Assembly (NCBI GenBank): GCA_044227505.1
Contig: JBGAWP010000005.1
Coordinates: 22,947-86,946, forward strand
DNA from: Chitinophagales bacterium
GTDB taxonomy: Bacteria; Bacteroidota; Bacteroidia; Chitinophagales; BACL12
Direction of reading: 5' to 3'
DNA length: 64,000 bases
Positions 15,688 through 59,263 of the stretch are shown here, piece by piece. The position numbers and the translations under genes are program-made. Under the pieces are notes generated by a model. The model did not search any database. It saw nothing but the letters and a program-made list of their open reading frames with translations, and had not been told where the DNA came from. How positions within the stretch are numbered: position 1 is the first letter of the stretch; each line of letters starts with the position of its first letter.

Positions 15688-16455
15688 ATGAAGATCATAA
15701 CCTATAATCTGAATGGCATTCGCGCTGCAATGAACCGGGGGTGGCTCGACTGGGTGCGGGAACATGCATTTGATATCATTTGTGTACAAGAATTAAAAGC
15801 AGAACCCGGACAGTTGGACGTTACACTTTTTGATCAACTGGGTTATCACCATTACTGGCATCCGGCAACAAAAAAAGGATACAGCGGTGTCGCCATTTTT
15901 TCAAAAATAAAACCGGACAATGTTGTGATAGGTTGTGGAAATAAGGATTATGATTTTGAAGGCAGGGTTATTCGTGCCGATTACGGAGATAAAAGTGTTT
16001 ACTCCATTTATTTTCCTTCCGGCACTACAGGTGATGTTCGGCAGGGAGTTAAATATCAATTCCTCGATTATATTTCCACGCATTTACAGGAGGTGCAGAA
16101 AAATAGAAAAAAATTAATTGTTTGTGGTGATTATAATATTGCACATACTCCTTTAGACATTCACGATCCAAAGGGAAATAAAAACAGCTCCGGATTTTTA
16201 CCCGAAGAACGCGCATGGATGGATACTTTTTATGGTTCGGGGTATATTGACAGCCTTCGTTTTTTTAATAAGGATCCACACCAATATACTTGGTGGAGTT
16301 ACAGAGCAAATGCAAGGGCAAATAATAAAGGATGGAGGATAGATTATATTGCTGTCACCGAAAATTTGGCGAAGGACCTTGTTGGTGCAAAGATCTATCC
16401 CGATGCCATGCACAGCGACCATTGTCCGCAGTTGTTGGAGATGAATTGGGAATGA
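15688..16455 (+). CDS. xth: Exodeoxyribonuclease III
   Basis: YNLNGIRA, QELK, GYSGVA, GDYNIAH, GWRIDY and SDHCP motifs. Confidence 0.95.
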   Translation: MKIITYNLNGIRAAMNRGWLDWVREHAFDIICVQELKAEPGQLDVTLFDQLGYHHYWHPATKKGYSGVAIFSKIKPDNVVIGCGNKDYDFEGRVIRADYGDKSVYSIYFPSGTTGDVRQGVKYQFLDYISTHLQEVQKNRKKLIVCGDYNIAHTPLDIHDPKGNKNSSGFLPEERAWMDTFYGSGYIDSLRFFNKDPHQYTWWSYRANARANNKGWRIDYIAVTENLAKDLVGAKIYPDAMHSDHCPQLLEMNWE

Positions 16456-16487
16456 AAGAATGAAGGAGTGAAGGAATGAAAAAATGA
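16451..16487 (+). repeat. Degenerate 8-mer tandem (AATGAAGG) starting within the xth stop codon
   Basis: aatgaaag aatgaagg agtgaagg aatgaaaa aatgag. Confidence 0.6.
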
Positions 16488-16495
16488 GCGCCGTC

Positions 16496-16527
16496 GACCT
16501 CACAGGTTTGGGAAACCTGTGCAGGTC
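16496..16527. repeat. REP-like palindrome, copy 1
   Basis: GACCTCACAGGTTT-GGG-AAACCTGTG(C)AGGTC; near-identical copy at 42946-42976. Confidence 0.85.
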
Positions 16528-16557
16528 TGAAATAAAATGAAAGAATAAATTTCTAAA

Positions 16558-17043
16558 TTATTTTTGCGGTTGAACACCAAATTTCTCCAGCTTCACCCCA
16601 ATACTTAAAATAAAAGGAAGCGGATTCATGCGCATATCCTGTTCAAGGGTTATGGTGTATTTTCCTTTTTGAGGAAGTAAAAAATTACTTTGAACAAGCA
16701 CCGAATTAAAACAAATACCGTCAACACAATCACCTGTCCATTCGCCGTTTGATTCAGATAAAATTACACTTACTTTATTTTTCTGAACGGTACTATCAGG
16801 AAAAACAGTGGTCATATTTAACCATAGATTATTATAGGGATATTCGTCAGTATGCCGAACATTGATATATAAGTTGTACGAAATATTTGTATCGAGAACA
16901 GAAACTTCAAAATTTTCTTGTTCTCCATAAAACCATCCTTCTTTTTCAAGCGAAATATTTTTATCGAAAACACGTGATTGCTCGCAAGCGGAAAATAATA
17001 TTGCGACAAACAATAAACAATATAGCTGGAAAAGTTTTTTCAA
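16558..17043 (-). CDS. gldH: Gliding motility lipoprotein GldH
   Basis: Lipobox FSAC; NVRHTDEYPYNNLWL, GEWTG and EQDMR motifs; typical position next to PSP1 and holB. Confidence 0.88.
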   Translation of the reverse strand: MKKLFQLYCLLFVAILFSACEQSRVFDKNISLEKEGWFYGEQENFEVSVLDTNISYNLYINVRHTDEYPYNNLWLNMTTVFPDSTVQKNKVSVILSESNGEWTGDCVDGICFNSVLVQSNFLLPQKGKYTITLEQDMRMNPLPFILSIGVKLEKFGVQPQK

Positions 17044-17049
17044 AACAAA

Positions 17050-18426
17050 TTATTTTTTATCGTCGGGATTATTATTTCTGTTATTCGGATTGTTTCTATT
17101 ATCTCTGTTTGGATTATTCCTATTATTGCGATTGGGGTTGTTCCTGTTGTCGCGATTAGGGTTATTTCTGTTATCGCGGTTTGGATTTACCTTGTCTTCC
17201 GGTCTTTTATTTCTGTTTGGATTATTATCCTGCTGATTTTGTTGCCGTGGATTTTGTTGTTTTTGATTTGGATTTCTTTGATTTGGATTGCGTTGATTCG
17301 GGTTTCTTTGGTTTGGATTTTTATTTTTCTTACCGGCCTTTTCTATTGTTTTTAAACTCACATGTTCTATTACATTAATATAATCCACTTCCTTTTTAGC
17401 AGGTTCCGCTTCTACTTTTAATCCTTCCAGATGTTCAGGTTTTTTCCCCTCCACATTCATGGCGCGAATTTCTTTTACTTTGTCGATGGTTAATGCATAT
17501 TGTTTACTGGCATCACTGTATTCATATACCATTAATTTTTTAAAGATATCTGTTTTAACTAATCGAGCATCTCCATTTTCCGTCTTTAAAAAATCGGCGT
17601 CTTTCGGAAACTCATGTAAAGCATCCATGTAGGTATCCAATTCATAATTCAAACAGCATTTTAATCTGCCGCATTGACCGGATAATTTAGATTGGTTGAT
17701 ACTGAGATTCTGATATCGGGCAGCATTTGTTCCTACCGATTTAAAATCTGTAAGCCAAGTTGAGCAACATAATTCACGTCCGCAAGAGCCCAATCCTCCA
17801 ATTTTTCCTGCTTCCTGCCGGGCTCCTATTTGCCGCATTTCCACTTTAACACGGAACTCCTTGGCGTATAATTTTATCAATTCCCTGAAATCAACACGAT
17901 CGTCGGCGATATAATAAAATGTGGCCTTTCTTTTATCCCCTTGATATTCCACCTCTCCGATCTTCATATCCAGATTGAGTTCACGGGCAAATTTTCTGGC
18001 TTTTAACATTGTTGCGCCCTCCATTGCCCGGCCTTCCATCATTTTTTGAACGTCCGTTTCAGTCGCTTTGCGCAAAATGGGTAAAAACTGACTTTCAGGA
18101 TTTACCTTGCGCTTTTTCATCTGCAATTTCACTAATTCACCGGAAAGTGAGATGCGGCCAACATCAAATCCGCTATCTGTCTCTACGCAAACCATGTCGC
18201 CGGTCATCACATCTATTTTATTTTTATTGGCGTAAAAGCCTTTGCGTATTCCATTCTTGAAGCTTATTTCGTGCACATTGCACTCTTGTCCCACCGGAAC
18301 AGGGAGAAAACGCAACCAATCGTAAGTATTTAATTTATTACATCCTCCGGTGGCACAATGCCCGTTACTCTTGCATCCCGTAGGGGTTCCGGTATTGGAA
18401 CCAACTGAACATCCTGCACAACTCAT
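17050..18426 (-). CDS. PSP1-domain (RicT/YaaT-like) Cys-rich protein with N/R/P repeat tail
   Basis: N-terminal Cys cluster; RVDFRELIK; CGRELCC and CGRLKCCLNYE motifs. Confidence 0.9.
   Translation of the reverse strand: MSCAGCSVGSNTGTPTGCKSNGHCATGGCNKLNTYDWLRFLPVPVGQECNVHEISFKNGIRKGFYANKNKIDVMTGDMVCVETDSGFDVGRISLSGELVKLQMKKRKVNPESQFLPILRKATETDVQKMMEGRAMEGATMLKARKFARELNLDMKIGEVEYQGDKRKATFYYIADDRVDFRELIKLYAKEFRVKVEMRQIGARQEAGKIGGLGSCGRELCCSTWLTDFKSVGTNAARYQNLSINQSKLSGQCGRLKCCLNYELDTYMDALHEFPKDADFLKTENGDARLVKTDIFKKLMVYEYSDASKQYALTIDKVKEIRAMNVEGKKPEHLEGLKVEAEPAKKEVDYINVIEHVSLKTIEKAGKKNKNPNQRNPNQRNPNQRNPNQKQQNPRQQNQQDNNPNRNKRPEDKVNPNRDNRNNPNRDNRNNPNRNNRNNPNRDNRNNPNNRNNNPDDKK
17062..17320 (-). 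repeat. In-frame coding repeats: NPNQR about x4 (15 bp) and NPNRDNRN about x5 (24 bp)
   Basis: Visible in the translation; synonymous positions differ between units. Confidence 0.85.
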
Positions 18427-27572: not shown

Positions 27573-29414
27573 ATGAAAAAGATACTTACAACCGGAATAA
27601 TGATGTTTTTTATTGTGCAGCTTTTTGCGCAACAGGCGTCATTAACTGCAAGCGTGAGTAAATCGAAGGTTGCATTAAGTGAGAGATTTCAATTGACACT
27701 CACTGTAAACAACGGAGGAACGCTAAAAGATTTTCGCCCACCTGCAATGGCTGATTTTATTGTTATGGGAGGCCCTAATCAATCATCAAGCACAATGATC
27801 GTGAATGGAAAGGTTACATCCTCAGTTTCTTATTCATATGTTTTGCAACCAAAAAATATCGGAAAATTTACTATCGGAGCTGCCTATGTAAAAAGTAATG
27901 ATAAAACACTTTCCTCTCAACCTATTGCAATAGAAGTTGTAGATAAACCCACTTCCACACAAAATAATACTGTTGATCAAACAACAAAACAAAATGAAAC
28001 AAACACGGATATTAATAAATACATACAAGATAATGTTTTAATAAAAACCGAAGTAAGCGATCAGGAGATCTACAAGGGAGAGGATGTTACCGTTACCTTA
28101 AAATTTTGCGTGAAAAAAAATTCTTCCATTTATGGTTATAGAATTATGCAGGCCGTTAAGGTGCCAAAATATGATGGATTTTATGCCACGGAAATTGAAT
28201 TAAGTGAACAGCAAGCGCAAACGGAAACAATAAATGGTGAAGTATATGAGGTAAGTACCTTTAAAAAAACAATACTTACTGCACAAAAGGCAGGAAAGCT
28301 GGAAGTGGATCCAATTACATTGGATGGTTTATTTGGGGTTCAGGTAAAAAAACAAAAATCCAAATCAGGTGACCCGATGCAGGATTATTTAGATGATTTT
28401 TTCTCCAATCCTTTCAGCTCAGGAAATAAAGAGGTGCGTGCATCGGTTTCCTCCTCTGCAGTAAAAATTAATGTGTTGGAACTGCCTGCAAATGCCCCTG
28501 CAGATTTTAATGGGGCAGTAGGTAAATTCAGCATGAAAACAGAACTGAATGCAATATCCACAAAAACCGACGAACCTCTTACTTACAGAGTTATTATTAC
28601 CGGAAATGGAAATCTGGAATTATTTAATGCACCGGTATTAAATCTTCCTCCGGGTTGGGAAACATATGATCCAAAAACATCTTCCAACAGCAACTCAAAA
28701 ACCTACGAATATTTATTAATACCCAGATCACCCGGCGAATTTACAATCCCTGCATACACATGGTCATTTTTCAATCCTGAAAAGAAAAAGTATGAAACAA
28801 TCTCCTCAGAAACCTATAAAGTAATTGTTGAAGCCGGACCAGGTTACAATCCTTCAGCAGGAAATTATGCTGCTAATAAGGAAGATGTGGAAATGCTCGC
28901 GAATGATATTCGGTATATTAAAAAAACCGGTCCGAATTATGTAAATTCAGCAAACCGTTTTTATGGAACAGCAGCGTTTTATACCTTACTCGGGTTGCCA
29001 TTTTTTGCTGGGATCGGAATATTTGTATTAACCGCCAAAAGAAAGAAAATATTGAGTGATCATGTTGCACTTAAATATTCAAAGGCAAATACCACGGCAA
29101 AAAAACGATTGGTAAAAGCAAAAGAATTTGTAGCAACCAATAATGCAAAAGCATTTTACGACGAAATTATTAAAACTTTATGGGGGTATTTGGCCGATAA
29201 GCTCAATATTAAACACAGTGATCTTTCAAAAGAAAATATACGGGAAGTTTTGGTGCGTCGGCAGGTTTCAGAAAACACATGCGACAATACCTTACAACTT
29301 TTAAATACCTGTGAAGTTTCTTTGTTTGCGCCGCAATTGAGTTCTGCAACTTTAGAACATGTTTACAAAGACGCAATGGATATTATTACTAAATTAGAAA
29401 CGGAAATAAAATGA
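27573..29414 (+). CDS. batD: BatD protein
   Basis: GPNQSSS...NG, FNGAVGKF, LWGYLADKL. ATG 27573. Confidence 0.88.
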   Translation: MKKILTTGIMMFFIVQLFAQQASLTASVSKSKVALSERFQLTLTVNNGGTLKDFRPPAMADFIVMGGPNQSSSTMIVNGKVTSSVSYSYVLQPKNIGKFTIGAAYVKSNDKTLSSQPIAIEVVDKPTSTQNNTVDQTTKQNETNTDINKYIQDNVLIKTEVSDQEIYKGEDVTVTLKFCVKKNSSIYGYRIMQAVKVPKYDGFYATEIELSEQQAQTETINGEVYEVSTFKKTILTAQKAGKLEVDPITLDGLFGVQVKKQKSKSGDPMQDYLDDFFSNPFSSGNKEVRASVSSSAVKINVLELPANAPADFNGAVGKFSMKTELNAISTKTDEPLTYRVIITGNGNLELFNAPVLNLPPGWETYDPKTSSNSNSKTYEYLLIPRSPGEFTIPAYTWSFFNPEKKKYETISSETYKVIVEAGPGYNPSAGNYAANKEDVEMLANDIRYIKKTGPNYVNSANRFYGTAAFYTLLGLPFFAGIGIFVLTAKRKKILSDHVALKYSKANTTAKKRLVKAKEFVATNNAKAFYDEIIKTLWGYLADKLNIKHSDLSKENIREVLVRRQVSENTCDNTLQLLNTCEVSLFAPQLSSATLEHVYKDAMDIITKLETEIK

Positions 29415-30199
29415 TAAAACAATTTATTTCAATATTTTTCTTTATTGTTTTGGCTTATCCATTATTTGGACAGAAAGATAGCACTGATACCAATATTGAT
29501 ACTACCACTTTTGTGTATGGTAATGTTATGTATGAAAAAGGAGAATATACAAAATCCATACAGATATACGAAACTTTATTATCCCAAAACGGACCCAGTG
29601 CAACATTGTATTACAATCTTGGGAATTGTTATTATAAAATAAATAAACTCGGGTTATCCGTTTTAAATTATGAACGTGCATTGATGTATGATGGTCGTAA
29701 TGAAGATATCAAATACAATCTGGAACTTGCAAATTTGAGGATAAGGGATAAAATAGAACCAATAAACGAAACACTTATTACAATATGGTCGCGCGATTTT
29801 ATTAAAATTTTCTCTGTTCACAGTTGGGCATTTTTTTGTATATTATTTTTGTGGATAGCACTGGCAGGATTTGTTATTTACCGATATTCCAAAAAAAGAA
29901 ATTTTCAACAATATGGTTTTTGGGGATTTGCGGTTTCACTTTTATTTTTTGTAATAACTTTTATTTCTGCGGTTGGCAGGAACAACTACGATAATAATTA
30001 TCAGTTTGCCATTGTTATGGCGCCAAGTTCCATCGTTAAAAGTGAACCTAACGAAAGCAGCACAAATATGTTTTTAATTCATGAAGGATTAAAAGTGCAG
30101 TTATTGGAATCTGATAATAATTGGACAGAAATTAAAATGCCTGATGGCAATGTTGGATGGTTGAAAAATGAGGATATTGTCAGGGTGAGTGGTGAGTAG
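29411..30199 (+). CDS. batE: BatE TPR/SH3 protein
   Basis: YYNLGNCYYK, YERAL, IHEGLKV...WTEIKMPDGNVGW. Confidence 0.88.
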   Translation: MIKQFISIFFFIVLAYPLFGQKDSTDTNIDTTTFVYGNVMYEKGEYTKSIQIYETLLSQNGPSATLYYNLGNCYYKINKLGLSVLNYERALMYDGRNEDIKYNLELANLRIRDKIEPINETLITIWSRDFIKIFSVHSWAFFCILFLWIALAGFVIYRYSKKRNFQQYGFWGFAVSLLFFVITFISAVGRNNYDNNYQFAIVMAPSSIVKSEPNESSTNMFLIHEGLKVQLLESDNNWTEIKMPDGNVGWLKNEDIVRVSGE

Positions 30200-30417
30200 G
30201 GAGTGGTGAGTATGATCCTTGTAAACCGGAATTTCTCCTCCTGACCAATGAAAATTTTTCGTGAATCGTCAATCGTGAATCGTGAGTCCGGAATATCGTA
30301 AGCCGGAAGTTTTTACTCCTGACTAATGACTCCTGACAAATGAGTGAGTGGTGAGTAGGGAGTAGTGAGAGTGCCCCTCGAATGCCGGAAGTTTTTTCTC
30401 CTGACTAATGACTCCTC
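30184..30417 (-). repeat. Three degenerate copies of the 81-bp modular repeat (inverted relative to 52983-53229)
   Basis: ggtgagtggtgagtagggagtggtgag...gtaagccgga...ctcctgactaatgactcctgaca matches the reverse complement of the 81-bp unit. Confidence 0.88.
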
Positions 30418-30426
30418 CCAAAACAC

Positions 30427-30489
30427 ATCAGTGCAATCCGCGAAATCCCTAAAATCCGCGATCCAAAAGTACATCCGCGATCAAAAGTG
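30427..30489. repeat. AATCCGCGA-type 9-mer tandem with a short duplication covering the neighbouring stop codon
   Basis: aatccgcga aatccctaa aatccgcga tccaaaagt ac atccgcgatcaaaagt. Confidence 0.6.
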
Positions 30490-31098
30490 GAAGAAATTAT
30501 ACGCCACCATAAAACTAAAAAATCCCGTCAGATATCCGAGATACACTTCGCGTTCGGTGTGGGCCTTTAATACTAAACGTGCTGCGCCAATACATCCTGC
30601 ACATAAAATAGTGATGATAAAAATTCCGAGAGAGTTATAATGTGCATATGGAAGTAAAATCATTATGGTTGCTATCATTCCTCCGGCTCCACTTGCATGC
30701 ATGCTTACTTTAAGCACTAGGATATTGATCATGAAATTTAAAAAAACAGCAATGGTGGATGCTAATAATATAAAAGTAATCTGAGGATAGAATTCCTCTT
30801 TAAAAAATACATAGAAGGCCCAGATATAAAAAAAACCCGCCGTTATATAGGGGATAATTCTTTCTTGTCGTTCATATACGTTCACCGATTTAATAAATTT
30901 TAAAGCGGCTAATAATGAAATGGTAAATGCAGGAAATATAAAAGTGAGTAATGCTACACGCAATAGCATAAGTTTATTCATATCTTGATCCGGATAATTA
31001 AATGGATTAGAATAAATAGCGTATATAGATCCATATAACGGTAACAACAGCGGAACGAAGAGTATGGAAAAAAAATGACCGAAGATCTTTTTTATCAT
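30481..31098 (-). CDS. PAP2-like polytopic membrane protein
   Basis: About 6 TM segments; KVSMH and RLVLKAHT.REVY.G motifs; overlaps the rpoN stop. Confidence 0.65.
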   Translation of the reverse strand: MIKKIFGHFFSILFVPLLLPLYGSIYAIYSNPFNYPDQDMNKLMLLRVALLTFIFPAFTISLLAALKFIKSVNVYERQERIIPYITAGFFYIWAFYVFFKEEFYPQITFILLASTIAVFLNFMINILVLKVSMHASGAGGMIATIMILLPYAHYNSLGIFIITILCAGCIGAARLVLKAHTEREVYLGYLTGFFSFMVAYNFFHF

Positions 31099-34280: not shown

Positions 34281-34675
34281 GGGGAGTGGTGAGTGGGGAG
34301 TGGTGAGAATGTAAGTCCACCACTGCCGATTGATTTATCCTCCGAAATGAAACTTTCAGGTGAATGAGTAATGAGTGATGAGTAATGAGTGTGGCAGTCG
34401 ACTACCGAATATTTTATGCTCCGTGTTGAAATTTTTAGGTAGAAATCAAATTTACATCCATAATCGAAGTAAACTCATTACTCATTACTCATTCAATTGT
34501 TAAGAGTCAATAGTCAGGAAAATAAACATTCAGATTACAAGGATTAAGCTCACCACTCACTATTCACCACTCACCATTACTCAGGATTCATTAGTTAGGA
34601 GAAAAAATATCCGCCCACGAGAATCATACTCATTACTCATAACTCATTACTCATTCTCATCACTCATTTCTCATT
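34281..34675. repeat. Composite heptamer-arm repeat cluster with nested inverted arms
   Basis: GAGTGGT arm 34284-34307; GAGTAAT arm 34363-34390; CTCATTA arms 34473-34493 and 34629-34656; CTCACCA arm 34549-34576; two degenerate 81-bp units at about 34496-34660. Confidence 0.85.
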
Positions 34676-34694
34676 TTTCATTAATTTTACCATC

Positions 34695-36699: not shown

Positions 36700-36783
36700 G
36701 TTGCCACGAATACACGAATAAAAATATTTATCACATAATAATAAACTCTCCCGATGGCTGTTCTTTCGTGCATTCGTGGCAAC
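36700..36783. repeat. 19-bp inverted repeat built from CACGAAT units
   Basis: GTTGCCACGAATACACGAA ... TTCGTGCATTCGTGGCAAC; one mismatch, 46-nt spacer. Confidence 0.75.
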
Positions 36784-37045
36784 AATTAAAACCCACAATA
36801 TATAAAATAATTAGTCATGAATACACAAACTAAAACAAAGGTGTATAACAAATATTAACCTGTTGACTTTTCATTTGGGGCAACAAATATTACAGCGACA
36901 CCACAATCGGCAAAAACGTATTGGATTAAAAGGTAAAACCTCGAAGAATGCAATTAATACCTCTCTTCGGGAAATAATTTAACTATTGAAAATTAATGTA
37001 ATTAGGTAATGCAAAGCTGCTCTGTTTTTAGGAGGCTATTCAACG

Positions 37046-39186: not shown

Positions 39187-39267
39187 ATTAATTTTTTTGA
39201 GATTTGAGTCGTGTCCGTATCAAATGGTGTCGAAAGGTAAAGATATTTTTTTGGATAATCAAAATAA

Positions 39268-39606
39268 GGAGAGAGGAGAGAGGAGAAAGGAGAGAGGAGT
39301 TTAAATTTCTTCGAAATTTTAGCAGGTTCTACTTTTTGTTTTCCTGATACCTGATACTTGATACCTGATACCCAAAATGGAGTTTAAATTACTTGCGAAA
39401 TTTTCTGGGTGTAACGTTAGTGAGACCTTCGCTGAGAGCGAAAGCTTCACTAGCTTCGCATTAATGCATTTCCCACCATTTGTTTTCCTTATACTTGATA
39501 CCTGATACCCGATACACCTGTGTTTTCCCGTATATCGCGTCCTATGTCCGCTTTCCCATGTCCTATATCAATCCTATGTCCTATGTCCTACTTCCTAAGT
39601 CCTATT
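39268..39606. repeat. Heptamer-arm cluster: GGAGAGA, CCTGATA (two tracts), CCTATGT
   Basis: Tracts at 39268-39299, 39343-39373, 39488-39515 and 39539-39606; duplicated core ggagtttaaatt..cgaaatttt at about 39296 and 39379. Confidence 0.85.
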
Positions 39607-42624: not shown

Positions 42625-42631
42625 GGGAAAA

Positions 42632-42935
42632 TGTACCAATGTACCGATGAAAAATGATGTACCGATGAACAGCCGGAATTTCGAAAAACCGGGAGATTAT
42701 AGAAACCATGGGAAGGAGGAGATGATTAGCAAATTAGCGCAATGCTGCGCATTGGGGATTAGCCAATTAGCAAATGGGGAATTCTGCTGAGTTTAAAGCT
42801 TTGTGGTCAGACCGGAGCGATTTGTTTTCCGGATGTTTTGATGAGAATCACCATAATAGGGGTTTACTTAAAATTGTGAAGTCAGCTTGGGTGGAGAATC
42901 AATTATCCACTTACCAGACTATCAAATTAACAAAT
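42632..42935. repeat. Repeat cluster: ATGTACCG arm, ATTAGCAA arm, TTACCAGACTATCAAATT arm
   Basis: Arms at 42632-42676, 42725-42778 and 42911-42935; inverse matches at 40633-40756 and 50793-51010. Confidence 0.8.
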
Positions 42936-50792: not shown

Positions 50793-51010
50793 CCCATTTG
50801 CTAATTATACCATTTGTTAATTTGTCAGCCGCTCCCTACCTTGGTTTCTAAAATATTCAGGTGTTCCGTTAACCGGCTGTTTCATTATCAATTGTCAATT
50901 ATCAATTGTCAATTTTTTTCGGCTGTTCATTTGTACATCGGTACATTTATTTGGCTGTTCATTTGTACATCGGTACATTTATTTGGCTGTTCATCGGAAC
51001 ATTGGTACAT
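50793..51010. repeat. Repeat cluster: TTTGCTAA arm, ATTATCA/ATTGTCA heptamers, 32-bp GGCTGTTCAT..GTACAT tandem
   Basis: cccatttgctaatt (50793-50806); attatcaattgtcaattatcaattgtca; ggctgttcatttgtacatcggtacatttattt x2 plus a variant copy ending at the purF stop. Confidence 0.85.
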
Positions 51011-52909
51011 TCAATAAGCGCGTACATCTTTCTTCTCCACAAAATTCATAAACGCCTTATTCGCAACCTTATTTCCACCCGGAGTAGGGTAGTTTCCGGT
51101 AAAATACCAATCGCCTAAATTTTTTGGTACTGCAAGATGGAGATTGTCTACAGTTTGATAAATAACTGCAACCTCTGCTTTTATTGTTGGAGCTTTTACG
51201 ATCTCAGCAATTTTATTGGAAATTTGTTCTTCGGTAAATTGATCGTAGAGTTTTTTTACTGCGTTGTAGGTTTTTTCGTTGGGTAATTTATTTACTTTTT
51301 TACATTCTTCGTAAACTTCATTTACCATATGTTCTTTGCCGGCTTCTTTTAATAATTCCATCATTGCACGGAATGCTACAAAATCGCCCATTTTACTCAT
51401 GTCAATTCCGTAACAATCGGGATAACGAATTTGCGGTGCGGAAGAAACTATAATTATTTTTTTAGGATGTAATCTGTCTAAAATTGCAATGATACTTTGA
51501 CGCAATGTTGTTCCCCTTACAATAGAATCATCCAGCAAAACGATGGTGTCCTTGCTATCTGTAACCTGTCCATAAGTTACATCATATACATGGCTCACAA
51601 GATCAGTTCTGTCGTGATCGTTGGTGATAAATGTGCGAAGCTTTACATCTTTTAACGCGAGTTTTTCCACGCGCGGTCGCAGACTTAATATTTTCTGAAT
51701 GGCTTCAATATTTTTGTTGCCATTTAATTTATTTATTTCTTCTGCTTTGTGATGTGCAAGATGTTCTTCTATGCCTTTTATTAATCCGTAAAATGCAATT
51801 TCAGCGGTATTTGGGATGAATGAAAAAATTGTATTTTCAAAATCGTAATTAACAGCTTTTAAAACTTTATCTGTCAATACACGTCCAAGATTTTTTCTTT
51901 CCTCATAGATCTCTTTATCATTTCCTCTGGAGAAATAAATTCTTTCAAATGAACAGGAAAGTTTTTCAGCTTGTGGCCGGCACATTGCTTCACGAACTGT
52001 TCCTTTCTTTTTAATGATCAATGCATGTCCGGGAGTTAATTCCTTTACTGCATCAAAAGGAACATCAAAGGTTGTCATTATTGCAGGTCGTTCGCTGGCA
52101 GCAACCACCACTTCATCATCCTGATAATAATATAAAGGTCGAATACCATTTGGATCGCGCATTACAAATGCATCTCCGTGTCCAAACATGCCTGTCATTG
52201 CATATCCGCCTTCAAAATCTTTGGAAGAGCGGGCTAAAATTCTCTGTACATCCAGATCGCTCGCAATTAATTGCGTTAAAGTTTTGTTGTCGTGATACTC
52301 CTTTCTCTCATCAAATAAATTCTGCACTTCATCATCTAAAAAATGACCAATTTTTTCCATTACCGTAACGGTATCTACAAATTGTGTCGGATGCTGCCCT
52401 AATTCCAGTAATTGCTGAAACAATTCATCGTTATTTACCATATTAAAATTACCGGCGAGCACAAGATTTCTTGTCATCCAGTTATTTTCGCGAACAAATG
52501 GATGGCAACTATCGATATCATTTCTTCCATAAGTTCCGTAACGCAAATGTCCCATTAAAACCTCACCGGTAAAGGGCACATTTTTTTTCATCCATTCGGT
52601 ATTATTATAGAGTTCCGGATTTTTTTTCTGGATCTTCCGTGTTTTTTTAAAAATATCCTCGAAAATATCTTTAATGGCAGTTGGAGAAATACTTCTTCTT
52701 CTGTCCAAAAACTTATAACCCGGCGCCAGATCTATTTTAATTGTTGCAATACCTGCTCCATCCTGTCCACGATTATGCTCCTTTTCCATGAGGAGATACA
52801 ATTTATTTAAACCGTACAATGGAGTTCCATATTTTTTATGGTAGTAGGAGAGTGGCTTTAATAATCGAATGAGGGCAATGCCGCATTCATGCTTAATGTT
52901 ATCGCTCAC
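51011..52909 (-). CDS. purF: Amidophosphoribosyltransferase (Bacteroidota long form)
   Basis: HECGIA N-terminus, HNRGQDGAG, DDSIVRGTT, CYGIDM. GTG start. Confidence 0.93.
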   Translation of the reverse strand: MSDNIKHECGIALIRLLKPLSYYHKKYGTPLYGLNKLYLLMEKEHNRGQDGAGIATIKIDLAPGYKFLDRRRSISPTAIKDIFEDIFKKTRKIQKKNPELYNNTEWMKKNVPFTGEVLMGHLRYGTYGRNDIDSCHPFVRENNWMTRNLVLAGNFNMVNNDELFQQLLELGQHPTQFVDTVTVMEKIGHFLDDEVQNLFDERKEYHDNKTLTQLIASDLDVQRILARSSKDFEGGYAMTGMFGHGDAFVMRDPNGIRPLYYYQDDEVVVAASERPAIMTTFDVPFDAVKELTPGHALIIKKKGTVREAMCRPQAEKLSCSFERIYFSRGNDKEIYEERKNLGRVLTDKVLKAVNYDFENTIFSFIPNTAEIAFYGLIKGIEEHLAHHKAEEINKLNGNKNIEAIQKILSLRPRVEKLALKDVKLRTFITNDHDRTDLVSHVYDVTYGQVTDSKDTIVLLDDSIVRGTTLRQSIIAILDRLHPKKIIIVSSAPQIRYPDCYGIDMSKMGDFVAFRAMMELLKEAGKEHMVNEVYEECKKVNKLPNEKTYNAVKKLYDQFTEEQISNKIAEIVKAPTIKAEVAVIYQTVDNLHLAVPKNLGDWYFTGNYPTPGGNKVANKAFMNFVEKKDVRAY

Positions 52910-52982: not shown

Positions 52983-53229
52983 AATTGTCAGGAGTCATTG
53001 GTCAGGAGTAAGAAAATCCGGCTTGCGTGGAGCATTCTCACCACTCCCTATTCACCACTCACCAATTGTCAGGAGTCATTAGTCAGGAGGAAAAAAATCC
53101 AGCTTACATGGAGCATTCTCACCACTCCCTACTCACCACTCACCAATTGTCAGGAGTCATTAGTCAGGAGGAAAAAAATCCGGCTTACATGGAGCATTCT
53201 CACCACTCCCTACTCACCACTCACCAATT
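52983..53229 (+). repeat. Three tandem 81-bp modular repeats
   Basis: Units start at 52983, 53064 and 53145: AATT-GTCAGGA GTCATTA GTCAGGA-core-CTCACCA CTCCCTA CTCACCA CTCACC; the array ends at the MoxR stop. Confidence 0.95.
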
Positions 53230-54194
53230 CATAACATCCCCCTGATCAGCTCATCCACCCCAATTCCATCCGCTTCCGCTTTGTAGTTGCGAACGATACG
53301 ATGGCGGAGAACGGGAAGCGCTACGGCTTTTACATCTTCAATGTCGGGAGAATATTTCCCGTTAATTGCAGCATTACATTTTGCACCGAGAACAAGGTAT
53401 TGTGAAGCTCGTGGTCCGGCACCCCAGCTTAAATATTGTGTTGCTTTTGCATCCGCATTTTTTGTGTTAGGTCTTGTTTTAGATGCCAGCAAAACGGCAT
53501 AATTCAAAACATTATCTGCAATGGGAATTCTTCTGATAACATGCTGATAATACATGATCTCTTCTGCGCCGATAATTTTATTTAATGTTGTTTTTTTATC
53601 CGAAGTGGTAGATTTTACAACTTCTATTTCTGCATCAAAATCAGGATAATCGAGATTTATCTCGAACATAAATCGGTCGAGTTGCGCTTCAGGTAAGGGA
53701 TAAGTTCCTTCCTGTTCAATCGGGTTTTGAGTTGCCAGAACGAAAAATGGTAATTCCAGTTTATGTAAAGTTCCACCTATGGTTACATTTTTTTCCTGCA
53801 TTGCCTCTAATAAAGCAGCTTGTGTTTTAGGCGGAGTTCTGTTGATCTCATCTGCCAAAATAATATTTGCAAATACAGGTCCTTTTATAAATTTAAATGT
53901 TCTGTTCTCATCCAATATCTCATTTCCGGTAATATCGCTCGGCATAAGATCGGGAGTGAACTGGATGCGTTTGAAGGAAAGATGTAGAACATCTGCAATG
54001 GTTTTTATCAATAATGTTTTTGCCAATCCCGGAACTCCAACCAATAAACTGTGACCATCTGAAAAAATACTTAATAATACTTTTTGCACCACATCATCTT
54101 GACCTATTATTACTTTTCCAATTTCAGCCTTTAATGACTTGAAATCGGCAGCAAGTGAGTCAATAGCTTCCACATCGTTTTTAAATTCTTTCAT
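53229..54194 (-). CDS. MoxR family AAA+ ATPase (PPIase-operon associated)
   Basis: GVPGLAKT, RIQFTPDLMPSD, DEINRTPPKTQ. Confidence 0.95.
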   Translation of the reverse strand: MKEFKNDVEAIDSLAADFKSLKAEIGKVIIGQDDVVQKVLLSIFSDGHSLLVGVPGLAKTLLIKTIADVLHLSFKRIQFTPDLMPSDITGNEILDENRTFKFIKGPVFANIILADEINRTPPKTQAALLEAMQEKNVTIGGTLHKLELPFFVLATQNPIEQEGTYPLPEAQLDRFMFEINLDYPDFDAEIEVVKSTTSDKKTTLNKIIGAEEIMYYQHVIRRIPIADNVLNYAVLLASKTRPNTKNADAKATQYLSWGAGPRASQYLVLGAKCNAAINGKYSPDIEDVKAVALPVLRHRIVRNYKAEADGIGVDELIRGML

Positions 54195-56450: not shown

Positions 56451-58418
56451 TTATTTTACCATTGAATTAAATACTTTCTGATCGATATTTACTGGATATT
56501 TTTTGTGTAATTCTGCAATCCATTGTTTTTCTAATTCATCCTGGTAGGCAGAGATCACATAACCACGTGCTTCATCCAATGTTTTATTTGTTGGTGCAAC
56601 CACTTTGCGCAACACAACAAAAGTGATTGACCCATTTGCATTTAAAATATCTTCACCACTACCTGGTTTTTTGTTCAATTTGTCAACGTTTGTATCCTGA
56701 CCGGGTAAAAATAAGGCGCTTTTTATAGTAACTAATTCGGTGGAATCAGTATTGTATTGGGCCATGATATCTTTATCAGAGGTATTTTTGGAAGCCAATT
56801 TTCTTACCTCTTTTGCAATTTTTGGATCTGCACAGGTATATACACTTGCATCAACTCTTTCTTCCCACATGTATTCGCTTTTGTGTTGTTCGTAGTAATT
56901 TTTTAAACCTACGGAATCAGTTGATCCTTTTGACCATATTTTGCGTTCAAGCATTGCAAATAATGGCAATCCGTCGCGATATTCCTGCAATAATCTTTTA
57001 AAATCAATATTGCGTTCAGAAAGATCGTATTCAATAATAGTTTGCTCCATTGCAGTGGTATAAAGTTTATTGTATTTTTCCTCTATATTCTTATCTCGTG
57101 AACTGCGTTGATTAATATCGAGATAAGAAGCCATGTCTTGTTGTGTAAAAGATTTACTTCCAATGGTGAACATGGTCTTATTCATATTTGCTGCCCTGCT
57201 CATGCTCCAGTTATTTTTAATAAAACTGGAATCTAATAGAACCAACATTTCGTTTTTTGCGACCTGATTTTCTGTGAAAGCATATTTTGTTTTTGCTTTT
57301 TCCACAAACTCATTTCGCAGTGTTTTATATTCAGCTGATTTTTCAATTTTGCTTTTTAATTCTTCCTTCATTTCATCATAAGATCCGTTTGGTTTTTTTT
57401 CAAGGAGTTTAATTATGTGCCAACCGAATGCAGTTTGAACAACATTTGAAATATCACCTGGATTTTTCAGGGCAAAAGCAGCCTCTTGAAAAGGCATTAC
57501 CATTTTACCTGTTGTAAATGCTTCTAATTTTCCACCATTTGCAGAACTGGTTTTATCTTCTGAATATGTTTGTGCCATTTCTTCAAAATCTGCACCTGCT
57601 TTAATTACGGATAAAATACTGTCTGCTTTGGCTTTTGCTTTTGCTATATCTTCCGGTTTTGCATCTTTTCCCGTTTTTATCAGAATGTGTGCAACAGTTA
57701 CCGTACCCGATGCAGGGCGTTCTTTGGCAACTTTTATAATATGGTAACCAAATTTAGTTTTAACAACCGGTGAAAATGTGCCCGGTGCAAGTGAGAATGC
57801 GGTATTTTCAAAATTCATATCGGGGATCTGACCAGATGTTATCCAACCAACCAGTCCGGGGTCGTTAGGATTATTTTTATCAGCAGAAATTTCAGCTGCA
57901 ATTTTACCAAAATCTTCCCCTTTCATTAAACGATCGTGGGCTGCAGTCAACTTCGCAATTGCTGCGGTGCTATCTGCTCCTTTTTGTGCGGGATCCAAAG
58001 TTACCATGATATGGTAAACCAAACGCTCCGATTGCAAACGATTATACATACGAACTGCAGCGGGTTCCAATACTTCTTTATCAAAATTGGATTTGATCAG
58101 CTGATCACCATATTTTTGAAGTTCTTCTCTAACCTTTTCAGTAGTATCAATCTTTTCAGCTCTTGCTTCTGTTACTTTCAATTTAAAATTGATATACAGA
58201 TCGAGATATTCGTTTAAACTTTCTTTAGAAAAATCATTTTGTTTATCGGGGTTGTTCTTTTTGTAAACATAAAGGAACTCCTCTTTTGTTACCGGCTGGC
58301 CATTTACTGTAAAAAGCACTTCATTATTGGAACCGGTTTTTCCATTTTGGCCAAACGCCGATGTCGCAGACACCAACCCTATCAACAGGAACAGGGTTTT
58401 AAAAACTTTCATTTGCAT
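56451..58418 (-). CDS. Two-parvulin-domain peptidylprolyl isomerase
   Basis: EFLYVYKKN, two rotamase domains (FGYHIIK, FGWHIIK), EYRDGL.LF. Confidence 0.9.
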   Translation of the reverse strand: MQMKVFKTLFLLIGLVSATSAFGQNGKTGSNNEVLFTVNGQPVTKEEFLYVYKKNNPDKQNDFSKESLNEYLDLYINFKLKVTEARAEKIDTTEKVREELQKYGDQLIKSNFDKEVLEPAAVRMYNRLQSERLVYHIMVTLDPAQKGADSTAAIAKLTAAHDRLMKGEDFGKIAAEISADKNNPNDPGLVGWITSGQIPDMNFENTAFSLAPGTFSPVVKTKFGYHIIKVAKERPASGTVTVAHILIKTGKDAKPEDIAKAKAKADSILSVIKAGADFEEMAQTYSEDKTSSANGGKLEAFTTGKMVMPFQEAAFALKNPGDISNVVQTAFGWHIIKLLEKKPNGSYDEMKEELKSKIEKSAEYKTLRNEFVEKAKTKYAFTENQVAKNEMLVLLDSSFIKNNWSMSRAANMNKTMFTIGSKSFTQQDMASYLDINQRSSRDKNIEEKYNKLYTTAMEQTIIEYDLSERNIDFKRLLQEYRDGLPLFAMLERKIWSKGSTDSVGLKNYYEQHKSEYMWEERVDASVYTCADPKIAKEVRKLASKNTSDKDIMAQYNTDSTELVTIKSALFLPGQDTNVDKLNKKPGSGEDILNANGSITFVVLRKVVAPTNKTLDEARGYVISAYQDELEKQWIAELHKKYPVNIDQKVFNSMVK

Positions 58419-58463
58419 ATGTGGTAAGTTGATTTTTGTTTATCTGGTGAATTAAAAGGATTG

Positions 58464-58471
58464 CAAAGCTA
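58464..58471 (-). promoter_or_regulatory. -7 promoter element of the PPIase operon
   Basis: TAGCTTTG(CA) on the minus strand; a divergent TAATTTTG at 58600-58607 precedes slyD. Confidence 0.55.
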
Positions 58472-58629
58472 ATGATTATTGGGTTTTGAACAATAATAAG
58501 GGTTGATTTTATTGCATTTGGGTTTCAATTGGCAATTTTTCTTTCGTTAAAACCGCCACTCAACAGCAAAAATCATGCTTCAAATACTCAGATTATCATT
58601 AATTTTGAGGCTTTAACAAATTTTATTGT

Positions 58630-59136
58630 ATGTCAATTGCAAAAAACAAGGTAATATCGCTTACCTACGAACTGCGCGAAGATAACGCAGACGGCGACCT
58701 GATCGAAGTTGTGAACGCTGATCAGCCATTTGTATTTTTATTCGGTGCAGGCGGTTTATTACCGGAGTTTGAAACCAACCTGGAAGGTAAAACTGTTGGA
58801 AGCCTTTTTGAATTTCAGATCGCTTCGGCAAATGCTTATGGCGAATTTGACGATACTGCCTTGGAATACGTTCCTAAGGATATTTTTATGATTGATGGTC
58901 AGATTGCTGATGACCTTCTTCAAATTGATAAGGTGATAAACCTCCGCGATCAAGGCGGAAACCTGATACGTGCAAGAGTTGCAGAAGTTGGCGAAACGGA
59001 GGTTCTGCTTGACTTTAACCATCCTTTAGCCGGTGTTAATCTATGTTTCAAGGGAGAAATTTTGGAGATCAGAGATGCTTCTCCGGAAGAATTGGAACAT
59101 GGTCATGTTCACGGTCCGGGTGGACACCATCATTAA
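58630..59136 (+). CDS. slyD: FKBP-type PPIase SlyD
   Basis: DFNHPLAG; His-rich tail EELEHGHVHGPGGHHH. Confidence 0.9.
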   Translation: MSIAKNKVISLTYELREDNADGDLIEVVNADQPFVFLFGAGGLLPEFETNLEGKTVGSLFEFQIASANAYGEFDDTALEYVPKDIFMIDGQIADDLLQIDKVINLRDQGGNLIRARVAEVGETEVLLDFNHPLAGVNLCFKGEILEIRDASPEELEHGHVHGPGGHHH

Positions 59137-59150
59137 GATTCGAAGAATCG

Positions 59151-59263
59151 AAGGGTAGGGGTCTAAGGGTGAAAAAGGAAGGAAGGGTTGAGAAAGGTTA
59201 AAAAAGGAGGGTCTTTATGCCCCGAACCCAGAACCCCGAACCCAGAACTCAGAACCCCGAACA
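59151..59263. repeat. Repeat-armed spacer: G-rich left arm, CCCGAAC/CCAGAAC heptamer x6 right arm
   Basis: gaagggtaggggt...gggttgagaaaggtt ... cccgaac ccagaac cccgaac ccagaac tcagaac cccgaac. Confidence 0.8.

What the first reader, a model, noticed from the sequence alone, without database searches (positions are those of the whole stretch)
16451..59263. Dispersed family of polar, repeat-armed intergenic elements
Seen: about a dozen spacers (16451, 22870, 30184, 34281, 36700, 39268, 40628, 42632, 50793, 52983, 59151) are filled with short tandem arms of 7-9-nt units. The unit differs from site to site: GAGTGGT, GAGTAAT, TCGTGAA, GTCAGGA, GGAGAGA, CCTGATA, CCTATGT, CCCGAAC, ATTATCA, GTACATCG, ATTAGCAA, AATCCGCGA. 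In most spacers a purine/G-rich arm is on the left and a C-rich arm on the right, regardless of flanking gene orientation, so the arms face inward. No mobilising gene is in the window. Known: heptamer STRR repeats occur in cyanobacteria. My unverified recollection is that similar tracts flank four-helix-bundle and GxxExxY genes in Bacteroidota. Inference: these are non-autonomous relics or empty sites of an uncharacterised mobility or repeat-generating system. This is the best candidate here for an undescribed system.
Basis: partly seen in the sequence, partly recalled or inferred. Interest (0 to 1): 0.8.

Follow-up and report, generated by a model that had tools for sequence, protein, structure and literature searches.

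The report
Heptamer-armed repeat elements between genes
The spacers between genes in this Bacteroidota genome are filled with small modular repeats bounded by inward-facing runs of 7-base units, and these look like gene-less copies of a selfish cassette that elsewhere carries a small four-helix-bundle gene of the kind found inside ribosomal RNA intervening sequences.

Summary
The window has 20 period-7 arrays of at least 2.8 copies, against 0.8 expected. The 4.2-Mb genome has about 1,300, and 82% of them lie in the 16% that is intergenic. Polarity holds genome-wide: G-rich arm left and C-rich arm right in 138 adjacent pairs, the reverse in 9.

The arms are not free microsatellites. They bound modular elements (arm, short core, arm), for example an ~80-nt family with 244 copies. 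These elements sit mostly just after stop codons and are filled, empty or differently filled at orthologous spacers in sister species. Between strains they differ by whole 7-nt units.

The same arm types, inverted, enclose the genome's 11 four-helix-bundle genes (TIGR02436/PF05635, the S23p/Avd-like family) and its 3 GxxExxY genes. Inverted heptamer arms also flank related four-helix-bundle genes in 51 loci, mostly Chitinophagaceae, and on cyanobacterial plasmids.

The closest known relative is the 23S rRNA intervening sequence: an S23p ORF, a 28-bp terminal stem cut by RNase III, and tandem heptamers.

My best reading is that the window holds gene-less, MITE-like members of this cassette family. 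The mobilising activity is unknown: no reverse transcriptase was found, and no transposase lies within the cassettes. I rate it a new variant of a known kind, interest about 0.7.

The parts
16450..16487 (+). G-rich 8-mer arm (GAATGAAA type, x4.8). It overlaps the last bases of ORF 15688-16455 and runs on past its stop. A separate palindromic hairpin follows at about 16497-16527.
30184..30420 (+). Three tandem ~80-nt modules. Each has a G-rich arm (GGTGAGT or TCGTGAA type), a ~28-nt core and a C-rich arm (TCCTGAC/TAATGAC). The stop codon of ORF 29411-30199 lies inside the first arm.
30430..30460 (+). C-rich 9-mer tract (AATCCGCGA type), read by eye. It resembles the arms around the GxxExxY gene on contig C106.
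34281..34392 (+). Module with a GGGGAGT/GGTGAGT arm and a core, starting 5 nt after the stop of the class II tRNA synthetase gene (32741-34276).
   Evidence: z -3.1
34358..34497 (.). Element with complementary arms: AATGAGT x4, an 82-nt core, ACTCATT x3. It folds arm-to-arm. G002 and G003 have the same element.
   Evidence: z -6.5
34498..34683 (-). Two reversed ~80-nt modules that sit inside the ACTCATT arm; G002 has that arm uninterrupted. The arm differs by +14 nt or 7 nt between strains.
36700..36784 (.). 85-nt inverted repeat whose arms are 2 units of CACGAAT type.
   Evidence: z -8.0
39267..39376 (+). Module AGGAGAG x4.7, a core with a small hairpin, CCTGATA x4.3. G002 has it; G003 lacks it.
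39377..39515 (+). Second module of the same family. Its core holds a REP-like hairpin (about 39420-39455), and it ends in CCTGATA x4.1.
39539..39605 (-). GGACATA-type end module (reads GTCCTAT x10 on the + strand) abutting the stop of gene 39602-40624. Its unit is of the same type as the arms of the four-helix-bundle cassette on contig C7.
40634..40761 (.). TAATTTGA x3.8, then a composite 8-mer arm (GGTACAT with GGCTGTTCA). BLAST matches it to the left end of the C52 four-helix-bundle cassette.
42630..42665 (.). Inverted partner of the 40705-40761 arm. The two enclose the 2-oxoacid:ferredoxin oxidoreductase gene 40756-42639.
42720..42776 (+). ATTAGCAA 8-mer arms, in direct orientation, on both sides of a small hairpin.
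   Evidence: z +0.2
50884..51011 (.). ATTATCA/ATTGTCA x4.4 (matches an end of the C89 cassette), then a 32-nt unit x3.1 (matches an end of the C52 cassette).
52983..53229 (-). Three tandem 81-nt modules of the 244-copy family, in reverse orientation, abutting the stop of the MoxR-type ATPase gene 53229-54194.
59135..59262 (.). Purine-rich left end (matches an end of the C132 cassette), then CCCAGAA x6.1 as the C-rich right arm, between convergent genes.

Best explanation
The spacers hold gene-less, modular members of a family of selfish cassettes bounded by polar tandem-repeat arms. The arms are mostly 7-nt units, about 4 per arm. The G-rich strand runs 5' to 3' towards the centre from both sides.

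Gene-bearing members of the family carry a small S23p/Avd-like four-helix-bundle gene, or in some cases a GxxExxY gene, between inverted arms of a single type. The window's elements carry only a short core, and often two different arm types.

Shown:
- Arms gain and lose whole units between strains.
- Whole modules are present, absent or replaced at gene ends between sister species.
- Arm types in the window match the ends of four-helix-bundle cassettes elsewhere in the genome.
- Where the arms are complementary, the predicted transcript closes into a long terminal stem.

Inferred:
- Such stems are cut by RNase III, as in 23S rRNA intervening sequences.
- The small elements derive from, or depend on, the gene-bearing cassettes in the way MITEs depend on their master elements.
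- The pentameric four-helix-bundle protein is the prime candidate for the factor that recognises the arms.

The activity that actually moves the elements is unknown.
For: Architecture:
- The ~80-nt arm-core-arm family has 244 copies by iterated nhmmer.
- Polarity is 138:9 genome-wide and holds in all three spacer types.
- Period-7 arrays peak at 3.5-4.5 units (478 of 1261), whereas periods 6, 8 and 9 decline monotonically.
- Units within an arm co-vary, with the highest mutual information between columns 7 apart.

Dynamics:
- The spacer after gene 32741-34276 is 418 nt here. It is about 340 nt in G003, about 215 in G002 and 45 in G008 (empty). In G010 it is about 150 nt with no arrays by eye, and in G005 about 190 nt with other 8-mer arms.
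- The 39186-39602 elements are shared with G002 and absent in G003.
- One spacer carries different armed elements in G000 and G002.
- Contigs from independent metagenome studies differ by +14 nt and by 7 nt inside arms.

Link to genes:
- 6 of 11 TIGR02436 genes have period-7 arrays on both sides, against 80 of 3206 ORFs (Fisher p 8e-8).
- 10 of 11 four-helix-bundle genes share 9 or more inverted 9-mers across their flanks (9 of 11 share 10 or more), and 3 of 3 GxxExxY genes share 10 or more. Only 0.6% of 3046 other ORFs reach 10.
- Each cassette has its own arm type.
- The cassette ends match 1-62 other loci each, including 7 places in the window.
- The C7 cassette has an empty site in G008. 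G014 has a four-helix-bundle gene of 73% identity at the same site with different arms.

Generality:
- In 51 loci from other species, mostly Chitinophagaceae, arrays run at 1.21 per kb within 600 nt of the gene against 0.23 per kb further out.
- In those loci 28 of 30 left arrays are G-rich and 38 of 40 right arrays are C-rich.
- 30 of those loci fall into 14 genomic contexts.
- On 10 cyanobacterial plasmids, 6 genes have arrays on both sides and 9 have one on at least one side.
- Heptamer density tracks four-helix-bundle gene count across 10 related genomes (Spearman 0.89; the genomes are not independent).

Stem:
- In 8 of 8 cassettes folded whole, the minimum-energy structure pairs the left arm with the right arm, 18-81 pairs.
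- Two window elements fold arm to arm, z -6.5 and -8.0.

Precedent: the Coxiella 23S IVS has an S23p ORF, a 28-bp terminal stem cut by RNase III, and tandem heptamers whose number varies between strains (PMC4990558, passages).
Against: - No enzyme is identified. There is no RVT_1 hit in the 97.8%-complete genome, no transposase lies inside the cassettes inspected, and I could not make out a target-site duplication.
- Only 26 of 138 inward pairs have matching arms, so the stem/RNase III idea cannot apply to most small elements.
- The 244-copy family has no consensus fold. Its window copies fold no better than shuffles, z +0.2 to -1.5.
- Several abundant arm families have no cognate four-helix-bundle cassette in this draft assembly: AGGAGAG/GGAGAAA 91 arrays, AATGAGT 84, AGGTATC 41, GGGCAGT 29.
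- G017 has 7 four-helix-bundle genes but only 5 arrays per 100 kb. G034 has none of the genes and the same density.
- 13 of 30 Chitinophagaceae loci share one genomic context. That speaks for long vertical retention, and perhaps a host function, rather than frequent movement.
- On the plasmids, one gene has direct rather than inverted arms and one has no array beside it, only a marginal one 143 nt upstream.
- Shared arms between related cassettes are expected from common descent alone and do not show protein recognition.
- No expression data exist.
Confidence: 0.6

Rival explanations
1. There is no dedicated machinery. The arms are slippage-prone tracts that act as portable homology. Modules spread and reshuffle by ectopic recombination, gene conversion or template switching between like arrays. 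The small genes are simply frequent passengers or neighbours.
For: - Arm types assort combinatorially: 112 of 138 pairs are mixed.
- The two extra modules in the window lie inside a pre-existing ACTCATT arm and end in the same unit.
- Unit-number changes occur between strains.
- Units within an arm are homogenised.
- No transposase or reverse transcriptase was found.
Against: - It does not explain the 138:9 polarity.
- It does not explain the preferred arm length of about 4 units.
- It does not explain why the same small gene family sits between inverted arms in two phyla.
- It does not explain how elements first appear at spacers that are empty in relatives.
Confidence: 0.2
2. The elements are host-selected cis-acting RNA or DNA signals, such as RNase III processing sites, 3'-end stabilisers, terminators or binding arrays for an RNA-binding protein. 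They would then be maintained for gene regulation rather than as selfish DNA.
For: - Arrays prefer gene 3' ends: 34% of convergent spacers are filled against 9.5% of divergent ones, and 47% of outermost arrays lie within 20 nt of a stop codon.
- Arms are kept at one orthologous site in 13 species.
- A translational role was proposed for TAACTGA repeats in PMC4679880 (abstract and passages).
Against: - Orthologous spacers are empty or hold unrelated elements in sister species.
- Neighbouring genes are functionally unrelated.
- Most modules have no significant fold.
- A 3'-end bias is also what selection against promoter disruption gives for selfish repeats.
Confidence: 0.13
3. The elements are REP/REPIN-like repeats mobilised in trans by the genome's Y1 (RAYT/IS200-like) transposases.
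For: - 4-5 PF01797 genes are present.
- A REP-like hairpin that flanks one of them also lies in the core of the window element at about 39420-39455.
- Many cores are short hairpins.
Against: - The Y1 genes are flanked by their own hairpin repeats and have no period-7/8 array within 800 nt.
- The arms, not the cores, are the conserved part of the 244-copy family.
- Heptamer arms enclose four-helix-bundle genes in genomes and plasmids with no RAYT beside them.
Confidence: 0.05
4. The tracts are ordinary slippage microsatellites with no higher-order structure.
For: Whole-unit length polymorphism between strains.
Against: - Polarity is 138:9.
- The arrays form multi-part modules dispersed in hundreds of copies.
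- Arm length has a mode at about 4 units.
- Whole modules are gained or lost between species.
- The window has 20 arrays against 0.8 expected.
Confidence: 0.02

Closest known systems
23S rRNA intervening sequences (IVS) carrying an S23p ORF (Coxiella, Leptospira and others)
   Same: - A small four-helix-bundle ORF of the PF05635/TIGR02436 family between terminal inverted repeats.
- The Coxiella stem is 28 bp, equal to 4 x 7. The arms here peak at about 4 units.
- Tandem heptamers whose number differs between strains.
- Regarded as a selfish element of unknown mobility (PMC4990558, passages read).
- Whole-cassette folds here close in the same way.
   Different: - Here the cassettes sit in ordinary intergenic spacers and inside operons, not in rRNA.
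- The arms are built almost wholly of tandem units and come in a dozen types.
- Hundreds of gene-less modules accompany them.
- RNase III cleavage is untested here.
Cyanobacterial STRR heptamers and TAACTGA-type heptamer repeats (Beggiatoaceae, Cyanobacteria, five Bacteroidetes)
   Same: - Intergenic tandem heptamers of many sequence types, sporadic across phyla, with orthologous spacers lacking them in close relatives (PMC4679880, abstract and passages).
- The STRR name and its three Calothrix units are recalled. PMC4692102 cites the Calothrix report.
   Different: In the passages I read, those reports treat the arrays as free direct repeats. They do not describe arm-core-arm modules, inward polarity or a link to four-helix-bundle genes.
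Convergent GGGAATC heptamer pairs in Xanthomonas
   Same: - G-rich heptamer arrays occur as close convergent pairs on opposite strands, 70-75 pairs per genome.
- They are commoner between convergent than divergent genes (PMC4692102, passages).
- The solved S23p structure 2GSC comes from Xanthomonas and matches the proteins here (E 9e-30).
   Different: - There is one unit type there, and it was read as G-quadruplex or cruciform DNA.
- The authors state the repeats are generally not associated with mobile elements.
- No gene link is made there, and I did not examine Xanthomonas DNA.
MITEs, REPINs and BIMEs (small non-autonomous or mosaic intergenic repeats)
   Same: - High copy number, an intergenic location with 3'-end bias, and presence/absence between relatives.
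- Ends are shared with longer gene-bearing elements.
- The elements nest and form mosaics.
   Different: - The gene in the longer element is not a known transposase.
- No target-site duplication was seen.
- The ends are tandem short units of many types that mix freely.
- The genome's RAYT-type genes go with other repeats.
Avd, the accessory protein of diversity-generating retroelements
   Same: It belongs to the same four-helix-bundle pentamer superfamily: PF05635 resembles Avd (PMC10053308, passages). That Avd binds nucleic acid together with its reverse transcriptase is recalled, not read.
   Different: There is no reverse transcriptase in this genome, and I looked for no template/variable repeat pairs. 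The genes here stand alone between repeat arms.

Membership tests
IVS-type S23p cassette | Encloses a PF05635/TIGR02436 four-helix-bundle ORF | tested here: not met
   None of the 11 TIGR02436 matches lies on contig C99, which holds the window. The window elements are gene-less. The feature is met by 11 cassettes elsewhere in the genome.
IVS-type S23p cassette | Complementary termini that close a long stem | tested here: inconclusive
   Met by 2 window elements (z -6.5 and -8.0) and not by the 80-nt modules. Genome-wide, 26 of 138 pairs have matching arms. Met by 8 of 8 gene-bearing cassettes folded.
IVS-type S23p cassette | Excision from the transcript by RNase III | not testable with these tools
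   No RNA run holds the locus.
IVS-type S23p cassette | Inserted in a 23S rRNA helix | tested here: not met
   All window elements lie between protein-coding ORFs, and the window has no Rfam match.
STRR-type heptamer repeats | Tandem 7-nt units, several unit types, hundreds of intergenic copies | tested here: met
   1261 period-7 rows, 167 canonical units, 82% of merged arrays intergenic.
STRR-type heptamer repeats | Cyanobacterial host (as originally defined; recalled) | tested here: not met
   T9SS sorting domains mark the host as Bacteroidota. The nearest relatives of its four-helix-bundle genes are Chitinophagaceae.
MITE | Shares its ends with a longer gene-bearing element in the same genome | tested here: met
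   The ends of the 11 cassettes match 1-62 other loci each, including 7 places in the window.
MITE | The longer element encodes a transposase | tested here: not met
   The enclosed genes are four-helix-bundle or GxxExxY proteins. Neither has a known catalytic function.
MITE | Target-site duplication | tested here: inconclusive
   Filled and empty sites were compared by eye at two loci. No duplication was evident, but the genomes compared are 13-25% diverged.
MITE | Presence/absence polymorphism at orthologous sites | tested here: met
REP/RAYT (REPIN) | The repeats flank, and match those beside, a Y1 transposase gene | tested here: not met
   Five PF01797 loci have hairpin repeats beside them but no period-7/8 array within 800 nt.
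Plain slippage microsatellite | No higher-order organisation beyond the tract | tested here: not met
   Polarity is 138:9, the arrays form modules, and arm length peaks at about 4 units.

The most novel reading that the evidence does not exclude
The tandem heptamer arrays long known from cyanobacteria (STRR), and those seen in Xanthomonas, Beggiatoaceae and Bacteroidota, are the footprints of one widespread class of selfish element. Its master copies encode the S23p/Avd-like pentameric four-helix-bundle protein. On this reading each protein variant recognises its own arm, about one 7-nt unit per subunit and 4-5 units per ring, rather as TRAP reads its triplet repeats. It thereby directs the maintenance, processing or spread of both its own cassette and the gene-less modules that carry the same arms. 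Ribosomal intervening sequences would then be just the best-known landing site.
Probability: 0.3. Interest if true: 0.85.

Novelty: new variant of a known kind. Interest (0 to 1): 0.7.

Why it matters
Two old puzzles would become one testable question.

Tandem heptamer repeats have been catalogued in bacteria for decades without a known origin or role. PMC4692102 states that no detailed literature on heptameric repeats existed, and PMC4679880 finds no transfer mechanism evident. The S23p/four-helix-bundle family, with a solved structure and thousands of genes, has no known function outside diversity-generating retroelements.

If the arms and the gene belong to one element, the function of S23p can be sought in arm binding. 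The heptamer tracts could also be annotated as mobile DNA rather than as candidate regulatory sites.

Practically, these elements break short-read assemblies: contigs of relatives end in them. They also create strain-level length markers.

Tried and rejected
- Telomerase-like or reverse-transcriptase addition of units. The inward G-rich polarity suggested it, but PF00078 has no hit in the genome. Dropped as unsupported.
- Polarity as a by-product of stop codons facing incoming ribosomes. Rejected, because polarity is 20:1 in divergent spacers too and some G-rich units, such as AGGAGAG, carry no stop.
- A conserved RNA fold for the 244-copy family. RNAalifold gave no structure on either strand for 100 full-length copies out of 244.
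- Rfam: no family at gathering score in the window.
- Expression: no RNA holder was listed for window 29400-35700. Only DNA contigs could be laid.
- Inner-flank conservation as a second polarity test. It is clear for the AGGAGAG, AGGTATC, ACATAGG and AATTGAG families but absent for GGTGAGT and AATGAGT.
- Other small ORFs between inverted repeats. Six were tested and none has a Pfam hit. The one compared with the four-helix-bundle profile did not match it, and two pairs compared with each other were unrelated. One has a Y1-transposase-like C-terminal motif by my reading only.
- The first related-loci query was too diverse. I repeated it with three closer sequences, so only one subfamily of the gene was sampled outside the family.
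- Elhai et al. 2008 on small dispersed repeats could not be read. Anything said of it would be recall, so I do not use it.
- One literature search was badly specified and returned taxon papers only.
- Print status. Searches found no paper linking heptamer arms to four-helix-bundle genes. The library lacks most subscription journals, and supplements were closed. The supplementary tables of PMC4679880 and PMC4692102 list repeat neighbours and could bear on this.

Full report
**What is there**

The window is G000:C99:22947-86946. The draft genome is 4.21 Mb in 143 contigs, 36% G+C and 97.8% complete. T9SS sorting domains on several window proteins place it in Bacteroidota.

Sites 22870 and 36700 are weak.

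- The window has 20 period-7 arrays of at least 2.8 copies. Forty block-wise first-order shuffles gave a mean of 0.8 and a maximum of 4.
- Genome-wide, period 7 gives 1261 TRF rows, against 210, 389 and 438 for periods 6, 8 and 9.
- Merged, there are 1312 heptamer arrays covering 45.7 kb. Of these, 1081 lie mainly outside my ORF set, which covers 84% of the genome.
- The ORF set is a crude greedy caller (ATG-started ORFs of at least 90 aa), so the gene-relative figures are approximate.

**The arrays are arms of modules**

The 81-nt unit repeated three times at 52983-53229 recurs at 30184-30420 and, reversed, at 34498-34683. Iterated nhmmer from one unit converges on 244 copies.

In their alignment the two arms are the conserved part. 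One is about four GGTGAGT-like units and the other is TCCTGAC/TAATGAC. The ~28-nt core is variable.

- Of the 244 copies, 100 are full-length and distinct. RNAalifold finds no common structure in them on either strand.
- The strongest column covariation is between positions 7 apart within an arm, which means the units of an arm are kept alike.
- Other families have other arms and their own inner motifs, many with a short hairpin.
- Inner flanks are much more alike than outer flanks for the AGGAGAG, AGGTATC, ACATAGG and AATTGAG families. They are not for GGTGAGT or AATGAGT.

**Polarity**

I took non-overlapping period-7/8 arrays of at least 2.8 copies (1165) and called an array G or C when its G-C skew was at least 0.1.

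- Adjacent arrays 15-400 nt apart are G-then-C 138 times and C-then-G 9 times. There are also 76 GG, 82 CC and 205 pairs with a weakly skewed member.
- Pairs closer than 15 nt are 2 against 23, which is what abutting modules give.
- The bias holds in tandem (56:1), convergent (43:4) and divergent (20:1) spacers. It is therefore a property of the elements, not of neighbouring gene ends.
- This polarity is unchanged by reverse complementation, so independence from gene orientation carries no information in itself.
- Arm types mix. Only 26 of the 138 pairs have the same unit on both sides.
- Arm length has a mode at 3.5-4.5 units (478 of 1261 rows) and 26-31 nt (437 of 1261). Periods 6, 8 and 9 simply decline from the detection limit.

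**Where they sit and how they change**

- Arrays fill 34% of convergent spacers, 13.5% of tandem spacers and 9.5% of divergent spacers.
- 47% of the outermost arrays next to a gene end lie within 20 nt of the stop codon.

Sixteen genomes of the same genus are held. Comparisons with them show the following.

- The spacer between the tRNA synthetase gene (32741-34276) and the oxygenase gene (34695-35642) is 418 nt here. It is about 340 nt in G003 and about 215 nt in G002, both with related modules.
- That spacer is 45 nt and empty in G008. In G010 it is about 150 nt with no heptamer array seen by eye, and in G005 about 190 nt with unrelated 8-mer arms.
- Relative to G002, this genome has two extra reversed modules inside an ACTCATT arm.
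- The 39186-39602 elements are shared with G002 at about 89% identity and are replaced by other sequence in G003.
- Contigs from four DNA metagenome runs of four studies all carry the elements. One differs by a 14-nt insertion (two units) at 34486, and two others have 7-nt gaps.

So arms change by whole units between strains, and whole modules change between species.

**The gene link**

The genome has 11 TIGR02436 four-helix-bundle genes and 3 GxxExxY genes. None is in the window.

- Six of the 11 have period-7 arrays within 400 nt on both sides, against 80 of 3206 ORFs (Fisher p 8e-8).
- Two more have period-8 arms. One has hexamer arms, one has composite 8-mer arms, and one has non-tandem inverted repeats.
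- By an objective count of 9-mers shared in inverted orientation between the 350-nt flanks, 10 of 11 score 9 or more and 9 of 11 score 10 or more. All 3 GxxExxY genes score 10 or more. Only 0.6% of 3046 other ORFs reach 10.
- Each cassette has its own arm type, the same on both sides and inverted.
- BLAST of the cassette ends finds 1-62 other loci each. In the window the hits are 30259, 30315, 34549, 40705, 50885, 50912 and 59142.
- The larger ORFs that also score high are ordinary genes that happen to lie between like arms. Examples are EF-G, a CotH protein, and the window's oxidoreductase at 40756-42639.

**Filled and empty cassette sites**

- On contig C7 the cassette lies between convergent genes. 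In G008 the stop codons of those genes abut. G002 has the same cassette (87% identity).
- G014 has, at that same site, a four-helix-bundle gene of 73% identity with quite different arms, TATCAGG...CCTGATA instead of GGGACAC...GTGTCCC.
- The C91 cassette splits two genes that are roughly 10-30 nt apart, judged from hit coordinates, in G013, G009, G015, G005 and G010. In G002 the same spacer holds a different small armed element.

**Beyond this genus**

- A search with three closely related four-helix-bundle proteins returned 51 loci, nearly all Chitinophagaceae/Chitinophagales MAGs.
- Arrays are 5.3 times denser within 600 nt of the gene than further out, 1.21 against 0.23 per kb.
- Of 41 loci with both flanks present, 16 have arrays on both sides, 23 on the left and 28 on the right.
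- 28 of 30 left arrays are G-rich and 38 of 40 right arrays are C-rich.
- Thirty loci with full flanks fall into 14 genomic contexts. One context is shared by 13 species, where arms of about four units abut the neighbouring genes.
- A tblastn of the C7 protein against plasmids hit 28 records, 24 of them cyanobacterial.
- Of 10 plasmid loci fetched, 6 have arrays on both sides within 200 nt. Five of these are G-left/C-right and one is direct. Nine of the 10 have an array on at least one side.
- Density on these plasmids is 4.0 arrays per kb near the gene against 0.31 per kb far from it.
- Several of these genes sit inside operons, for example between cas6 and cas4 in two genera and between ribonucleotide reductase subunits.
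- Within the family of the window's genome, four-helix-bundle counts run from 0 to 12. Heptamer density in 60-100-kb samples tracks them (Spearman 0.89, n = 10 related and therefore non-independent genomes). G017 is an exception.

**What the gene is**

- The proteins match TIGR02436 (78-128 bits) and the pentameric structures 2GSC (Xanthomonas XCC0516, E 9e-30) and 2RLD.
- PF05635 is described as Avd-like in PMC10053308 (passages).
- The genome has no RVT_1 match, so this is not a diversity-generating retroelement.
- It has 4-5 Y1-transposase genes. These are flanked by their own hairpin repeats and no heptamer arrays. One of those hairpins also sits in the core of the window element near 39420-39455.

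**How it may work**

Folding eight whole cassettes as RNA pairs the left arm with the right arm in every case, 18-81 pairs, enclosing the ORF. The eight were three from this genome, two Chitinophagaceae and three cyanobacterial.

This is the published architecture of the Coxiella 23S rRNA intervening sequence. That element has an S23p ORF, a 28-bp terminal stem cut by RNase III, and tandem heptamers whose number differs between strains. It has an old, untested proposal that the ORF serves its mobility (PMC4990558, passages).

In the window, two elements close in the same way: 34358-34497 with z -6.5, and 36700-36784 with z -8.0. The 80-nt modules and the 39262, 42716 and 59135 elements fold no better than shuffles. 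The stem model therefore covers the gene-bearing cassettes and a minority of small elements. It does not cover the mixed-arm majority.

I read the small elements as non-autonomous members or recombinant end-pairs of the cassette family. The preferred length of about four units and the pentameric protein suggest arm recognition by the protein. That is inference only, because shared arms among related cassettes are also what common descent gives.

**What is known already**

- Intergenic heptamer repeats in Cyanobacteria, Beggiatoaceae and five Bacteroidetes, with relatives lacking them at the same spacers, are described in PMC4679880 (abstract and passages).
- Convergent G-rich heptamer pairs in Xanthomonas are described in PMC4692102 (passages). 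Its authors say the repeats are generally not associated with mobile elements.
- Neither paper, in what I read, links the repeats to four-helix-bundle genes, and my searches found no paper that does. The library is incomplete, supplements were closed, and family descriptions in curated databases were not visible to me.

**Verdict**

I rate it a new variant of a known kind, with confidence 0.6 in the cassette-family reading, and interest 0.7. The interest comes from tying two unexplained and widespread features together in a way that ordinary binding, processing and mobility assays can test.

Noticed in passing
window 16497-16527 and 42946-42977: A near-perfect ~30-nt palindromic hairpin occurs twice in the window, each time just beside an armed element. 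It is a separate REP-like repeat family.
   Followed up: partly
window 39420-39455; G000 contig C104 around 3711-4301: A REP-like hairpin in the core of a window element is the same repeat that flanks, in several copies, a weak Y1-transposase-like ORF on C104. Hairpin repeats therefore nest inside armed elements.
   Followed up: partly
window 2-15609, minus strand: Six tandem ORFs of about 670-865 aa; the first runs off the window's start. The one I scanned is a sulfatase with a PKD domain and a T9SS sorting tail. The others were not scanned.
   Followed up: no
window 17070-17320, inside ORF 17050-18426 (PSP1 domain protein): Coding-region tandem repeats of 15, 24 and 30 nt at the C-terminal end of the protein, unrelated to the heptamer arms.
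   Followed up: no
L141 (Pseudanabaena plasmid) and L143 (Anabaena sp. 90 plasmid): A four-helix-bundle gene with repeat arms sits between cas6 and cas4 of a CRISPR-Cas locus in two cyanobacterial genera. In L139 one sits between the two ribonucleotide reductase subunit genes.
   Followed up: no
G000 contigs C75:18026-18334, C62:16947-17426, C44:49705-50238, C7:6111-6590, C63:2108-2410: Small ORFs of 100-177 aa between strong inverted repeats, with no Pfam match. They may be further cargo families or chance ORFs across repeats.
   Followed up: partly
G002:C3:549010-550260 (L025): In the sister genome, the left end of the C7-type cassette (arm plus about 200 nt of the region downstream of the gene) is triplicated in tandem.
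   Followed up: no
window 30199: The stop codon of the TPR/SH3 protein gene 29411-30199 lies inside the first heptamer arm, so the element supplies the gene's end.
   Followed up: no
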